The translations under genes and the position numbers were made by a program. DNA of 64,000 bases from Escherichia coli (GTDB lineage Bacteria > Pseudomonadota > Gammaproteobacteria > Enterobacterales > Enterobacteriaceae), in the NCBI RefSeq assembly GCF_011045215.1, contig NZ_CP049201.1; one strand, 5' to 3'. Shown here piece by piece: positions 53,574-57,067 of this stretch. Under the pieces are notes generated by a model. It worked only from the letters and a program-made list of their open reading frames with translations. It was not told where the DNA came from and searched no databases. Numbering within the stretch: the first letter of the stretch is position 1; each line of letters opens with the position of its first letter.

Positions 53574-53600
53574 TAAAAAGGGCGAAATGCCCTTTTTTTA
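53574..53600. terminator. Bidirectional terminator between yifE and yifB
   Basis: aaaaagggcgaaatgcccttttttt. Confidence 0.7.
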
Positions 53601-55001
53601 TGTCAGTAGTTTTTGCAGATGGATGAGCAAACGGTCAATCGCACGATAGCTAACTGCCTCCTGCAAATGCTGACGTGTGATAATGTCAGACTGATCAATA
53701 TCAGCAATGGTTCGTGCAACTTTCAATAACCGCTGCCAGGCACGAATCGATAACCCCAGATGGATCAGCGTTTCTTCCAGCCACTGCGCATCTTCGCTCT
53801 CAAGCTTGCAGAATTTGCGTATTTCCGGACTATCCAGCCAGGCATTCAGTTTATTCTGCCGCTTAAATTGGCGCTCTCTGGCGGCCATTACGCGTTGTTT
53901 AACGGTGGCGCTGCTTTCTCCCGGCACTACCGTTTTACTCAAAATGCCGGGGGGTGGTAATGGGATCTCCAGTGAGAGATCGAAGCGGTCGAGAAAGGGC
54001 CCCGAGAGCCGGTTGAGATAACGTAATGTCTGTTCTGGCGTGCAGCGGTTATGGTTTCCCTGATAATGTCCGGTAGGGCTGGGATTCATCGCCGCAACAA
54101 GCTGGAAACGGGCTGGATAGGTTATTTTTGCTCGTGTGCGTGAAAGATGGATCTGCCCGGATTCAATCGGCTCTCGCAAAGCATCCAGTGTACGCCGTTC
54201 AAATTCAGGTAGCTCATCAAGAAAAAGCACGCCGTTATGCGCCAACGAAATTTCACCAGGCCCTGGAATTGCACCACCGCCCACCATCGCAGTTAACGAC
54301 GCACTGTGATGCGGTGAGCGGAACGGGCGCTGCCGCCATTGTTTTTGTACTGATTCAGCATTTACCAGACTTAATATCGCAGCGCTCTCCAGTGCCTCTT
54401 CATTGCTTAAATCTGGCAAAAGACCATTAATACGGCTGGCGAGCATTGTTTTACCTGTTCCCGGCGGTCCAATCAGTAAAAGGTTGTGCCCACCAGCGGC
54501 GGTAATTTCCAGTCCTCGCTTTCCTTGCTCCTGACCGACAACATCACTGAGATCATGTTGTAGCGCCCGGGATACTGCATCAGTTGGTTTCGGGCGTTCG
54601 AGAGTGTGCTTACCTTCCAGAAACGCACAGACAGCCTGCAGATGATCGGCTATCAAGCATCCTTCTCCGTTAATTAGCCCCACTTCATCTTCGTTATCTT
54701 TCGCGACGATAATTTTTCTGCCCGACTTAATAGCTTCAGTTGCACTGGAGATTGCGCCGGGAACGCCACGCAGAGCGCCTGTAAGCGCCAGTTCTCCGAC
54801 TAATTCATATTCATCTAACTTATTGGCTGTAAGCTGTTCTGAGGCCGCCAGCAACGCAATGGCGATAGGTAAATCATATCGTCCCCCTTCTTTTGGTAGA
54901 TCGGCTGGAGCAAGGTTAATGGTGATTTTTTTCGCCGGATATTCATATCCGCTATTTATAACTAAATTCGCATAACTTATTGAATCTAATTGATAAATCA
55001 C
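53598..55001 (-). CDS. yifB: YifB/ComM Mg-chelatase-like AAA+ ATPase, 5'-truncated with an element-derived 14-codon N-terminus
   Basis: ORF begins MIYQLDSISYANLV and then joins the conserved INSGYEYPAKKITINLAPADLPKEGG; the remembered native N-terminal ~45 residues (MSLSIVHTRAALGV...) are absent; Walker A GPPGTGKT present. Confidence 0.8.
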   Translation of the reverse strand: MIYQLDSISYANLVINSGYEYPAKKITINLAPADLPKEGGRYDLPIAIALLAASEQLTANKLDEYELVGELALTGALRGVPGAISSATEAIKSGRKIIVAKDNEDEVGLINGEGCLIADHLQAVCAFLEGKHTLERPKPTDAVSRALQHDLSDVVGQEQGKRGLEITAAGGHNLLLIGPPGTGKTMLASRINGLLPDLSNEEALESAAILSLVNAESVQKQWRQRPFRSPHHSASLTAMVGGGAIPGPGEISLAHNGVLFLDELPEFERRTLDALREPIESGQIHLSRTRAKITYPARFQLVAAMNPSPTGHYQGNHNRCTPEQTLRYLNRLSGPFLDRFDLSLEIPLPPPGILSKTVVPGESSATVKQRVMAARERQFKRQNKLNAWLDSPEIRKFCKLESEDAQWLEETLIHLGLSIRAWQRLLKVARTIADIDQSDIITRQHLQEAVSYRAIDRLLIHLQKLLT

Positions 55002-55386
55002 ACTATAAATAACGTTAGAAATCGCAAATTAACTACACCATTAACTACACCGTTCGGTGCACTGTATGGAACAACTTGGAACAAATAGACACAAGCGATA
55101 TACAGGAAGGGACAATTTTTCTATGCAGATTTGCATAGTTCCAAATGAAGCTGGTGGATGATCAGGGATAACCCGATATGGGAATCCCCATATCGGCATC
55201 GCGTAGTTAATCGTAGTGGCTACCGTAGTAGCCTCCGTAGTTGAGTCGCAGGGATGTAACAACCTGCCAGGAAGGAAATGATCGTGACTCGCCGTGACAT
55301 GACGTGATTAATCGTGACACCAAACAAAAAGCCTTACCCGTAGGCTTAATGCTTGGCTTGACTGTAGGCTTACCGTAACGCGCCGC

Positions 55387-55566
55387 TCACCGTCGCAGCC
55401 TGTCCGGTTTCCGCCACTGATACGGCCTCACATTATCATGCTGGTGGCGTTCCTGTTGCAGCACAACGGAAACAGGCGCTGAACACCTGTTAATTTTGCT
55501 TGCTGGTTGTTTGATTCCGGCAATGCTGCGGATCATCTTCAGCAAATCGGCTTCGGTGATGGTCAT
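55387..55566 (-). CDS. Possible small protein (59 aa) near element end
   Basis: Minus-strand ORF MTITEADLLKMIRSIAGIKQPASKINR... hand-translated; below ORF-track threshold; no clear RBS. Confidence 0.25.
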   Translation of the reverse strand: MTITEADLLKMIRSIAGIKQPASKINRCSAPVSVVLQQERHQHDNVRPYQWRKPDRLRR

Positions 55567-55589
55567 GGTTTACACCTTAGGAAATCTTA

Positions 55590-55860
55590 GGGGGCTGGTT
55601 GACACTTTCCGGCTTAAGACCTTAACAAACCTTAACATCGCAGGTTGACACACTTGACACTTTTTCGCGAAAAACCTTATCAAACCTTAGCATTTCTAAG
55701 CATGGCAACTTGACACTTTTCGCGATTTTTTTCGGCTTTTTGACGTGGTAAATCTGGCGCAAGGCCAGTAACGGCGGGGCTTACAGCGAGGTTGACACTT
55801 TTTCGCGTTCAGAGTGTAAAGTGTCAACCCGGCAAGCTGCTCAACTTGACACTTTTTGAT
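55590..55860. repeat. Array of at least 7 TTGACAC(T)n CGCG iteron-like repeats
   Basis: ggttgacactttcc, ggttgacacacttgacactttttcgcg, cttgacacttttcgcg, ggttgacactttttcgcg, gtgtcaacc (inverted), cttgacactttttgatg. Confidence 0.8.
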
Positions 55861-55861
55861 G

Positions 55862-56389
55862 TCATTGATGGTCTGATTTTTCCCATTCAGCCAGGGCGTT
55901 TAGCCCGGCTTCACTCCATGATTCCAGTTCATCGGCATAATCACCTGCAACATAGCAGAGTTCGCAACGCAGCATACGAATTGCCAGCCTGGCATTACCT
56001 CGCAAATTGTATTGTTCAAAGTAATGCTGCCCGTCGCAATCCTCAAGGCAGATAGCACCATCATCAAGAAAGTGCACTTCCCAGCCTAATTCCCCGGCTG
56101 CATCCAGCACACGCTGCTGTATGCCCTCGTCCGTTGCTGGCGCAGGAATTTTACCGTCTCTGGCCTTAACTGCTTTCCAGAACTCGCCCCACGTCATTTC
56201 CAGCGTTCTCTCTGGCCACATTTCAGAAACTGTGTCTTTTCCCTGTGCTGGTGGGCTGTTCCGCTGCTCTGTCGCTTCCACATCGATTTTTTTACCGGAC
56301 ATGACCACTTCGCCTTTCTCGATCCAGTCGTAAACTGTCTGGCGGCTTACGCCTTTGTGTTTGGCATATTCTGCCTTACTCATCAGCAT
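55862..56389 (-). CDS. HTH protein resembling phage small terminase subunit / packaging-redirection protein
   Basis: 175 aa; N-terminal MSKAEYAKHKGVSRQTVYDWIEKG helix-turn-helix typical of TerS-like proteins. Confidence 0.55.
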   Translation of the reverse strand: MLMSKAEYAKHKGVSRQTVYDWIEKGEVVMSGKKIDVEATEQRNSPPAQGKDTVSEMWPERTLEMTWGEFWKAVKARDGKIPAPATDEGIQQRVLDAAGELGWEVHFLDDGAICLEDCDGQHYFEQYNLRGNARLAIRMLRCELCYVAGDYADELESWSEAGLNALAEWEKSDHQ

Positions 56390-56395
56390 TATGAC

Positions 56396-57067
56396 TCACC
56401 CTTCTTTTTCCAGTTGAGCCAGCCGCCCGGATATTTCTTCCAGTTTTTCCAGGGCTGGCTTGCAGGCCGCATCAATAACGTCCCGGACCATTCCGGCAAG
56501 CTGCTCTTCTGCTGTCGGCGTTGTTACCTCCACACCCGATGGTTTCCCATCCTTATCCCATACGCCCAACGGTACGAGTGCAACGTGATCGATAAGAAAT
56601 GGCGTACCCTCAATAAAAAAATTGTCCTCGCCCATTACATCAGGAACTTCAGCCCCACCGGACGCACCACAAAACACAACCGACGGACTGGTGGATACCT
56701 CCCCCCGTGCTTTCTGGATGTAATCGATGATTTCCTGCCCGTAAATCCGGCATACGCCCCACACCTCGTCACCGCGAATATACGGCAACATGACGGTGCC
56801 AATAATGCGCGACCGTTCGCCCACGTCTTCAAGGGTTTTGCTTTCGGGATGGTCGATAATGACGGGTACTCCGGCGCAACGTTCCAGGAACTGCGGATTG
56901 AGATAAGTTTGCGGTGAACGCCAGACAAATTCTTTTTCTTCGGCGCGGTAGGCCATTCCGGTTCCTGTGATACGCAGGTTAACCAGCCACATGTTGGAAA
57001 ACTGATAAGGCGACGGTAGCTGTCCGTCCCGAATCTGCTTCGCCGCCTCAATTTCTGTTAAAAGCAT
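56396..57067 (-). CDS. Hypothetical protein (223 aa), element cargo or morphogenesis
   Basis: ORF with host-like GC, tightly spaced between neighbouring genes; no recognisable motif. Confidence 0.6.
   Translation of the reverse strand: MLLTEIEAAKQIRDGQLPSPYQFSNMWLVNLRITGTGMAYRAEEKEFVWRSPQTYLNPQFLERCAGVPVIIDHPESKTLEDVGERSRIIGTVMLPYIRGDEVWGVCRIYGQEIIDYIQKARGEVSTSPSVVFCGASGGAEVPDVMGEDNFFIEGTPFLIDHVALVPLGVWDKDGKPSGVEVTTPTAEEQLAGMVRDVIDAACKPALEKLEEISGRLAQLEKEG

What the first reader, a model, noticed from the sequence alone, without database searches (positions are those of the whole stretch)
55590..55860. Dense TTGACAC-T(4-5)-CGCG repeat array at the element terminus
Seven or more copies of a roughly 16 bp motif (one inverted) within 270 bp, lying 3' of the TerS-like gene, interleaved with ccttaRc repeats. 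Candidate packaging (pac/cos) recognition site, a second origin, or a cluster of protein-binding sites. Each copy also contains a consensus -35 hexamer (TTGACA), so a promoter array is an alternative reading.
Basis: seen in the sequence. Interest (0 to 1): 0.55.

Follow-up and report, generated by a model that had tools for sequence, protein, structure and literature searches.

The report
Satellite's binding-site array for packaging-like protein
The repeats are real and form the conserved docking array for the small DNA-binding protein encoded next to them in a phage-satellite island; it most likely marks the island's DNA for packaging, but it has no recognisable cutting site and instead holds a short element typical of replication origins.

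Summary
Six exact TTGACACTTT copies, plus four variants, lie in 55569-55855 and nowhere else in the 64 kb. The "16-bp ...CGCG" unit holds for only three copies.

The array sits 630-900 bp inside a PICI-type satellite inserted in yifB/comM. It begins just 3' of a 175-aa gene whose N-terminal 42 residues form a TerS(Nu1)/Rpp/Xis-type winged helix.

The gene and the array travel together in both directions. 341 of 369 TTGACAC copies in 90 related loci fall within 450 nt after the gene's stop. 156 of 165 loci picked by the repeat alone encode the protein.

A sister satellite family shares only this DNA-binding domain. There the same repeat is placed between a genuine cosQ-cosN and the gene, which is the cosB position.

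In EcCICFT073 and EcCIIHE3034 the same slot, between the rpp or terS gene and the small ORF, holds an inverted cos site.

Best reading (0.42): a private packaging-recognition array of cosB/pac type.

Complication: no cosN of the two types tested (lambda, BZS1) exists. The centre instead carries a 22-bp element otherwise found inside iteron origins, including the validated EcCICFT073 ori. A second origin is therefore the main rival (0.27). The promoter-array reading is rejected.

The parts
55569..55575 (+). Variant R site (TTTACAC), next to the start codon of the small ORF
   Evidence: Sequence read. The TTKACAC class is defined by the position matrix.
55599..55608 (+). R site, TTGACACTTT
   Evidence: Exact match.
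55645..55651 (+). R site, TTGACAC (7-mer only), abutting the next copy
   Evidence: family D9.
55654..55663 (+). R site, TTGACACTTT, with the TTCGCG tail
55574..55700 (.). Eight CTTAR-type short repeats with 10-bp phasing, interleaved with the R sites. They belong to a duplicated unit of about 55 bp (55599-55638 and 55654-55693). Similar blocks are conserved in the Raoultella, Enterobacter and Pantoea arrays.
   Evidence: families D2, D4.
55710..55719 (+). R site, TTGACACTTT, with the TCGCG tail
55740..55746 (+). Degenerate R site (TTGACGT)
   Evidence: Conserved as ACGTCAA or ACATCAA in the E. coli relatives.
55765..55786 (+). 22-bp origin-type core, CCAGTAACGGCGGGGCTTACAG, followed 5 bp later by an R site
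   Evidence: the only match in the window. The same pattern sits inside iteron arrays of the EcCICFT073 ori, other PICI oris, O-like initiator genes of lambdoid prophages and a P1-like oriR.
55792..55801 (+). R site (in the 'R3' position), with the TTCGCG tail
55814..55827 (-). Two abutting inverted R sites (GTGTAAA and GTGTCAA on the + strand), in the 'R2' position
   Evidence: inverted repeat I3.
55846..55855 (+). R site (in the 'R1' position), 7 nt before the stop codon of the 175-aa gene
   Evidence: The forward-inverted-forward order next to the gene is conserved in several lineages.
55862..56389 (-). Gene for the 175-aa protein. Residues 1-43 form a Nu1/Rpp/Xis-type winged helix; residues 60-170 form a family-specific alpha/beta domain. 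This is the inferred binder of the R sites.
55387..55566 (-). Small ORF (59 aa). It is a homologue of the 93-aa ORF that follows the inverted cos site in EcCICFT073 and EcCIIHE3034, and so marks the same slot.

Best explanation
The array is the DNA half of a conserved protein-DNA module of a PICI-type phage satellite. About ten TTKACAC(TTT) sites ('R elements') are bound by the N-terminal TerS/Nu1-type winged helix of the 175-aa protein encoded immediately upstream.

Several protein copies loaded on the three site clusters, helped by the 10-bp-phased CTTAR tracts, would build a bent nucleoprotein complex. That complex would mark the satellite's DNA for the helper phage's packaging motor. It would be a private cosB/pac-like recognition region, working on the logic of Rpp and the PICI cosB.

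Shown:
- the repeats exist
- they are linked to this DNA-binding domain, in both directions of the association
- the same motif is used as cosB in a sister family
- the array occupies the slot that holds a cos site in related islands

Inferred:
- binding itself
- contact with helper TerS or TerL through the C-terminal domain
- packaging as the outcome

Not explained: where the DNA is cut. No lambda-type or BZS1-type cosQ-cosN, the two types tested, is present. The place where cosN would lie is taken by a 22-bp origin-type core.
For: 1. Gene to array. In 90 related loci, 341 of 369 TTGACAC/GTGTCAA copies fall 0-450 nt after the gene's stop. The lineages include Pantoea, Raoultella/Klebsiella, Lelliottia, Enterobacter and Serratia.

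2. Array to gene. Of 165 loci picked only by an inverted TTGACACTTT pair, 156 encode a relative within 330 nt or less, median 47. Rpp-type PICIs have a different DNA-binding domain and no such sites (nR = 0).

3. The N-terminal 42 residues are nearly invariant across proteins that are only 35% identical overall. This matches the conserved motif.

4. Fold of the N-domain:
- PHROG terminase small subunit family phrog_57, E = 1.4e-7
- AFDB neighbours outside the family are Nu1-type TerS

5. Sister family B (about 190 aa) shares only this domain (hhalign probability 97.7%, E = 2e-12). It places 8-10 TTGACAC/TTGACAG sites between cosQ (GGGTCCTT) plus cosN (GCATTGCGCGCC, the annotated cohesive end of phage BZS1) and the gene start, which is the cosB position. 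These elements are satellites. The phages BZS1 and phiNP have the same cosN but a different cosB (GGTAACA x3) and a different TerS. This is the Rpp pattern described in PMC6739421 and PMC9026076.

6. Slot equivalence. In EcCICFT073 and EcCIIHE3034 the interval between rppA or terS and the homologous small ORF holds an inverted cos site, with cosB next to the gene's stop.

7. The three R sites nearest the gene run forward-inverted-forward, like lambda R3-R2-R1 (lambda sequence).
Against: - No lambda-type or BZS1-type cosQ-cosN exists in the window part of the element or in complete relatives. Best local scores were 13-14, equal to shuffled controls; the positive control EcCICFT073 scored 47.
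- The C-terminal domain is unlike TerS, Rpp or family B, so any contact with a terminase is pure inference.
- No phage in the 50,697-record collection has a TerS with this DNA-binding domain or a comparable array. No helper is identified.
- The centre of the array carries an element typical of replication origins.
- Binding has not been measured.
Confidence: 0.42

Rival explanations
1. A second, iteron-type replication origin. The TTGACAC sites would be iterons for the 175-aa protein acting as an origin-binding initiator or adaptor. The 22-bp core would be the functional centre of the origin, as in the pri-ori of PICIs.
For: The core CCAGTAAYGNCGNNGCTTNCAG (55765-55786) is otherwise found in the middle of iteron arrays whose iterons differ from one replicon to the next:
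- the experimentally validated EcCICFT073 pri-ori (L005 4182-4203, GGTAGA iterons; PMC6092414)
- EcCIIHE3034
- many other PICIs, next to the primase gene
- lambdoid prophages, inside the O-like initiator gene (phrog_345) just upstream of a DnaB-like helicase gene, with CCGCACA iterons
- P1-like RepB oriR, 27 of 28 bp identical to variant L020, E = 5e-3 over 7.3 Gb
- elements with GGTTGGACA, CTGCACTT or CCTGTGACA iterons

As in those origins, an iteron follows the core within a few bp.

The layout 'gene, stop, iterons, core, iterons' and the core's orientation relative to the gene match pri-ori in EcCICFT073.

The core is kept in the E. coli and Klebsiella/Raoultella arrays, which are otherwise diverged; Pantoea L006 has only a degenerate copy.
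Against: - The element already has a pri-proximal origin with GGTAGAYA iterons at 59830-60140.
- The array has no A+T-rich unwinding stretch (GC 44-49%) and, from reading the sequence, no DnaA box.
- Several lineages of the same family have R arrays without the core: L012-L016, the L062 type and L087-L093.
- The 175-aa protein resembles no known initiator.
- The same motif and DNA-binding domain serve as cosB in family B.
Confidence: 0.27
2. An operator, roadblock or decoy array. The protein would bind its own downstream sites to regulate read-through into the small ORF and accessory genes. Alternatively the module would act mainly in interference, by titrating or competing for TTGACAC-type cosB sites of rival elements, without itself directing packaging or replication.
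For: - The fold family (Xis, BldC, Cox, MerR-like) includes regulators that bind arrays of direct repeats. UniRef names one homologue 'Repressor'.
- The array lies in a transcribed intergenic interval. The only terminator-like site follows the small ORF, at 55329-55347.
- The family B cassette also occurs as cargo in the moron slot of a P2-like prophage, which fits a role in interference.
Against: - Ten sites over 290 bp downstream of the gene is atypical for an operator.
- This reading does not explain the origin-type core.
- It does not explain the equivalence with the cos slot in related islands.
Confidence: 0.15
3. An array of sigma-70 promoters, with each TTGACA serving as a -35 box.
For: Every copy contains the consensus hexamer TTGACA.
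Against: - No copy has a -10 partner at 16-18 nt: 0 promoter-like sites were found in 55000-56500 against 1.7 expected.
- The conserved bases extend beyond the hexamer (RGTTKACACTTT). Variants such as TTTACAC break the -35 consensus yet are kept.
- Copies occur in both orientations.
Confidence: 0.02

Closest known systems
Rpp and the private cosB of cos-type E. coli PICIs (EcCICFT073; Fillol-Salom 2019, PMC6739421; Murialdo & Feiss 2022, PMC9026076)
   Same: - It is a PICI-type satellite.
- A small protein with a Nu1-like winged helix is encoded at the distal end, between capsid-related genes and a homologous small ORF.
- A private set of binding sites lies beside the gene.
- The interval between the gene and the small ORF is the one that holds a cos site in EcCICFT073.
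   Different: - Sequence similarity to RppA is limited to 9 of 25 residues in the helix-turn-helix, and the C-terminal domain is unrelated.
- There is no cosQ or cosN.
- There are about ten sites, against the single R3-type site proposed for Rpp PICIs.
- An origin-type core sits where cosN would be.
Lambda cosB (R3, R2, R1 and R4) bound by gpNu1
   Same: Repeated sites of 12-16 bp for a Nu1-type winged helix, in forward-inverted-forward order next to the gene. Further sites lie on the other side of the central element, as R4 does in lambda (established knowledge of lambda; lambda sequence).
   Different: - The sites lie 3' of a convergent gene, not 5' of terS.
- No terL follows.
- There is no cosN.
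- The spacing is much tighter, and no IHF consensus was seen.
Sister 'family B' cassette: cosQ, cosN (GCATTGCGCGCC), TTGACAC array, then a wHTH gene of about 190 aa. Found here; I found no description of it.
   Same: A homologous DNA-binding domain (hhalign probability 97.7%), the same TTGACAC core motif, and satellite hosts in Enterobacterales.
   Different: - Family B has genuine cosQ and cosN, with the array upstream of the gene.
- Its C-terminal domain differs.
- It has no origin-type core.
Iteron origins of PICIs (pri-ori), of O-like lambdoid replicons and of P1-type oriR
   Same: Two or more clusters of short repeats flank the same 22-bp core. The whole lies immediately 3' of the gene for the presumed binding protein.
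   Different: - There is no A+T-rich stretch and no DnaA box.
- The binding protein is not a primase, helicase or Rep/O-type initiator.
- The element already has a pri-ori.

Membership tests
Lambda-type cos site | cosN: a defined nicking site that gives 12-nt cohesive ends (GGGCGGCGACCT in lambda and phi80; GCATTGCGCGCC in BZS1) | tested here: not met
   No match to the BZS1-type cosN at 3 or fewer mismatches. Matches to the lambda 12-mer at 3 or fewer mismatches are at the chance count, 48 against 46 expected, and none lies in the array. Complete relatives score no better than shuffled controls, while EcCICFT073 scores 47. The core shows only loose resemblance (GTAACGG...CG), not above chance.
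Lambda-type cos site | cosQ (GGGTCCT) upstream of cosN | tested here: not met
   Absent from the array and not found by alignment.
Lambda-type cos site | cosB: repeated sites for the winged helix of the small terminase | tested here: met
   About ten TTKACAC sites are linked to a Nu1-type winged-helix protein. The same motif occupies the cosB position in family B. Binding itself was not measured.
Rpp redirecting system of PICIs | The protein is homologous to RppA, RppB or RppC | tested here: not met
Rpp redirecting system of PICIs | The PICI carries the helper's cosQ and cosN together with its own cosB | tested here: not met
   A private site array is present, but cosQ and cosN are absent.
Rpp redirecting system of PICIs | Heterodimer with the helper TerS; blocks helper packaging | not testable with these tools
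   This needs two-hybrid or pull-down assays and phage titres. No helper has been identified.
Iteron-type replication origin | Clusters of iterons flanking a central region, beside the gene for the binding protein | tested here: met
   R sites lie on both sides of 55765-55786, and the array starts 7 nt after the gene's stop.
Iteron-type replication origin | The conserved origin core shared with validated origins | tested here: met
   Exact match to the pattern. The same pattern occurs in the EcCICFT073 ori and in other replicons. It is absent from some family members.
Iteron-type replication origin | An A+T-rich unwinding element and/or DnaA boxes | tested here: not met
   GC is 44-49% across the array, against 25-37% in the element's other repeat regions. 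No DnaA-box consensus was seen in the sequence. The EcCICFT073 ori has both features.
Iteron-type replication origin | Supports autonomous replication together with its protein | not testable with these tools
   This needs a plasmid maintenance assay.
pac site with a satellite-encoded TerS (SaPI type) | The adjacent protein is a small terminase, with a DNA-binding domain, a ring-forming oligomerisation core and a TerL-binding tail | tested here: inconclusive
   The DNA-binding domain is TerS-like. Residues 60-170 are predicted as a compact alpha/beta domain with no TerS or other PDB match.
Sigma-70 promoter array | A -35 hexamer paired with a -10 hexamer at 16-18 nt | tested here: not met
   0 sites found against 1.7 expected.

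The most novel reading that the evidence does not exclude
In this satellite family a terminase-type DNA-binding domain and its cosB-type sites have been rewired around a universal 22-bp origin core. The array would then be a second replication origin, or a hybrid origin-packaging site where replication-generated ends replace a cosN cut. The 22-bp core itself would be an undescribed origin element shared by PICI, lambdoid and P1-type replicons.
Probability: 0.25. Interest if true: 0.8.

Novelty: new variant of a known kind. Interest (0 to 1): 0.62.

Why it matters
Gram-negative PICIs spread virulence and defence genes. How they get packaged is known for only one system, Rpp with lambda-type cos sites.

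This module is widespread: about 3% of complete E. coli genomes (168 of 5426) and many other Enterobacterales. It gives:
- a defined DNA motif for a TerS-like domain, which is still lacking for Rpp
- a sister cassette that looks like an Rpp analogue for phages with a different cosN
- a satellite family that has a cosB-like array but no cosN of either tested type, which raises the question of how its DNA ends are made

The 22-bp core shared by origins of unrelated replicons is a separate lead for replication biology. It can be tested directly.

Tried and rejected
- Lambda cos. Aligning 400 bp of lambda cos to the region gave only chance-level scores. Searches for lambda and P2 cosN were negative.
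- BLAST of the array against phages and plasmids returned nothing except the 28-bp core match to a P1-like oriR. That match redirected the analysis.
- The protein is not RppC or RppA by sequence. Pfam and NCBIfam give only weak HTH_17 or excisionase hits.
- Xis or attP arm sites were rejected. The array lies 630 bp or more from the junction, and in strain O104:H4 it is more than 2 kb from the element end, with PARIS-like genes in between.
- Promoter array rejected.
- RNA element rejected: no Rfam hit in the array.
- I first took the family B protein for a helper-phage TerS. Its neighbourhoods showed satellites, and a moron slot in a P2-like prophage, with no adjacent TerL.
- 'One core per element' was tested and rejected. 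Some elements carry the core both in the array and near pri, and others have none within 6 kb.
- Literature searches by core sequence and on P1 oriR found no description of the core.
- The C-terminal domain gave no informative fold match.

Full report
**Observation.** The sequence at 55560-55870 holds six exact copies of TTGACACTTT: five on the + strand and one on the - strand. No other exact copy exists in the 64-kb window. My arithmetic expects about 0.12 exact copies. Four further 7-mer copies or variants bring the total to about ten sites in 287 bp:
- TTGACAC at 55645
- TTTACAC at 55569
- TTGACGT at 55740
- GTGTAAA at 55814

The repeat finder returns the same families. It also finds a duplicated unit of about 55 bp made of one TTGACAC site followed by two CTTAR-type repeats 10 bp apart. 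A position matrix from 369 sites in 74 distinct related loci gives RGTTKACACTTT.

**Context.**
- Nearly all E. coli genomes (5425 of 5426) match the window only up to about 54961, inside yifB/comM. An island therefore starts there.
- Its genes all lie on the - strand: a small ORF, a 175-aa protein, protease/scaffold-like proteins (phrog_6216), PerC, a ProQ/FinO-like protein and a P4-type primase.
- Annotated relatives show the standard PICI layout.
- Next to the primase gene is an origin-like region with GGTAGAYA iterons, at 59830-60140.
- The TTGACAC array fills the interval between the stop codon of the 175-aa gene (55862) and the small ORF (55566).

**The adjacent protein.**
- Its first 42 residues match the PHROG family of small terminase subunits (phrog_57, E = 1.4e-7).
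- Residues 60-170 form an alpha/beta domain with no informative match.
- It is not an Rpp by sequence.
- Homologues, all annotated as hypothetical, occur across Enterobacterales. The N-terminal 42 residues are almost invariant even between proteins 35% identical overall.

**Linkage of gene and array.**
- I fetched 13 loci from species genomes and 80 from IMG/VR using the protein. In 90 of them, 341 of 369 TTGACAC/GTGTCAA copies lie within 450 nt after the stop codon.
- This includes Pantoea, Raoultella/Klebsiella, Lelliottia, Pseudocitrobacter, Enterobacter and Serratia, where the spacers have diverged.
- In the other direction, I scanned IMG/VR for an inverted TTGACACTTT pair only. Of the 165 loci held that contain the pair, 156 encode a relative within 330 nt or less.
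- Rpp-type PICIs have a different helix and no such sites.
- I conclude that this winged helix binds TTKACAC. This is an inference from co-inheritance, not a measurement.

**The exceptions define a sister family ('B').** A protein of about 190 aa shares only the first 43 residues with ours (hhalign probability 97.7%, E = 2e-12). Its gene is preceded by these elements in order:
- cosQ (GGGTCCTT)
- cosN (GCATTGCGCGCC, the annotated cohesive end of Serratia phage BZS1)
- 8-10 TTGACAC/TTGACAG sites, which is the cosB position

These elements are satellites with a DUF927 primase and PerC, and no terL follows the gene. One copy sits between the tail-fibre-assembly and sheath genes of a P2-like prophage. 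BZS1 and phiNP have the same cosN but a different cosB (GGTAACA x3) and a different TerS. This is the pattern described for Rpp: the helper's cosQ and cosN combined with a private cosB and a private specificity protein (PMC6739421; PMC9026076).

**Slot equivalence.** In EcCICFT073 and EcCIIHE3034 the gene in this position is rppA or a genuine terS. The interval between it and the homologous small ORF holds an inverted lambda-type cos site, with cosB next to the gene's stop. Our array occupies that interval. Its three sites nearest the gene run forward-inverted-forward, like lambda R3-R2-R1.

**What does not fit a cos site.** No lambda-type or BZS1-type cosQ-cosN exists in the window part of the island or in complete relatives. 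Scores were 13-14, the same as shuffled controls, against 47 for EcCICFT073. No phage in the 50,697-record collection has a TerS with this domain or a similar array.

**The surprise in the middle.**
- The only database match of the array was 25 of 28 bp to P1-like phage-plasmids. There it lies in oriR, between the RepB iterons and the GATC repeats. A family variant matches 27 of 28 bp (E = 5e-3 over 7.3 Gb).
The 80 loci examined fell into the contexts below.
- Apart from our family, every hit whose neighbourhood I examined in detail lies in the centre of an iteron array whose iterons differ from replicon to replicon:
  - GGTAGA next to PICI primases, including the experimentally validated EcCICFT073 pri-ori and EcCIIHE3034
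  - CCGCACA inside O-like initiator genes of lambdoid prophages, followed by a DnaB-like helicase gene
  - GGTTGGACA, CTGCACTT and CCTGTGACA next to primase or helicase genes
- In our array an R site follows the core after 5 bp, as iterons do elsewhere. The orientation of the core relative to the upstream gene equals that in pri-ori.
- The array is therefore also built like an origin.
- Against that reading:
  - the island has its own pri-ori
  - the array has no A+T-rich stretch and no DnaA box
  - several lineages of the family lack the core
  - the protein resembles no known initiator

**Other readings.**
- A promoter array is rejected: no -10 partners.
- There is no Rfam family in the array.
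- Xis or attP arm sites are rejected on distance from the junction.

**Verdict.** The repeats are a genuine, conserved array of binding sites for the neighbouring TerS-type winged-helix protein. I rank a private packaging-recognition role (cosB/pac-like) first, at 0.42. The grounds are the domain's kinship, the use of the motif as cosB in the sister family, and the slot equivalence. A second iteron-type origin comes next at 0.27, because of the origin core. A regulatory or interference role is at 0.15. I found no description of the module, its sister cassette or the shared 22-bp origin core in the papers searched. I class the finding as a new variant of a known kind.

Noticed in passing
window 55765-55786; L005 4182-4203; L101 1501-1528; L113 about 2171; L103 about 5646; L137, L176, L134: A 22-bp element, CCAGTAAYGNCGNNGCTTNCAG, sits in the centre of iteron arrays of unrelated replicons whose iterons differ: PICI pri-ori, O-like lambdoid origins, P1-like RepB oriR and others. 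I found no description of it by sequence search in the papers.
   Followed up: partly
window 59830-60140: The pri-proximal origin of the island. GGTAGAYA iterons in both orientations surround a 14-bp-stem hairpin (60050-60082). The right half of the hairpin (GGCGC..TTTCAGCGGGTAG) resembles the 22-bp core.
   Followed up: partly
window 58960-59420: A very A+T-rich stretch (GC 25-33%) with five or six CCCCACTTTT(T) repeats in both orientations, upstream of the ProQ/FinO-like and PerC genes. It may be a control region.
   Followed up: no
window 55200-55380: Short repeats near the island end: CGTAGT x4, CGTGA(C) x4 and GTAGGCTTA x2. They could be integrase arm-type sites.
   Followed up: no
window about 54961 (yifB/comM, ORF 53598-55001): The island is inserted in the 5' part of yifB/comM. 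The remaining ORF starts with foreign codons. 5425 of 5426 E. coli genomes match only up to this point.
   Followed up: yes
L314 7250-8141; L322 4000-4911; L237; L260 8667-9540; L323 9001-9588: The sister cassette is cosQ, cosN (GCATTGCGCGCC), a TTGACAC array and a wHTH gene of about 190 aa. It occurs in E. coli and other enterobacterial satellites, and in the moron slot between tail-fibre-assembly and sheath genes of a P2-like prophage. It looks like an undescribed Rpp analogue for phages with BZS1/phiNP-type cohesive ends.
   Followed up: partly
window 56396-57067 and 57132-57725: Two adjacent ORFs (223 and 197 aa) match different parts of one PHROG profile (phrog_6216, with a weak hit to head maturation protease). 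A relative in strain O104:H4 has a single 380-aa gene in this position.
   Followed up: no
window 59424-59771 and 60148-61896: The N-terminus of the 582-aa primase and a separate 115-aa ORF beyond the origin match the two ends of one PHROG profile (phrog_2850). The origin therefore lies between two parts of what is a single protein family profile.
   Followed up: no
L002 8703-10659 (E. coli O104:H4): In this relative an AAA ATPase plus a DUF4435 gene pair (PARIS-like) lies between the array and the island end. The interval beyond the array therefore acts as a hotspot for accessory or defence genes.
   Followed up: no
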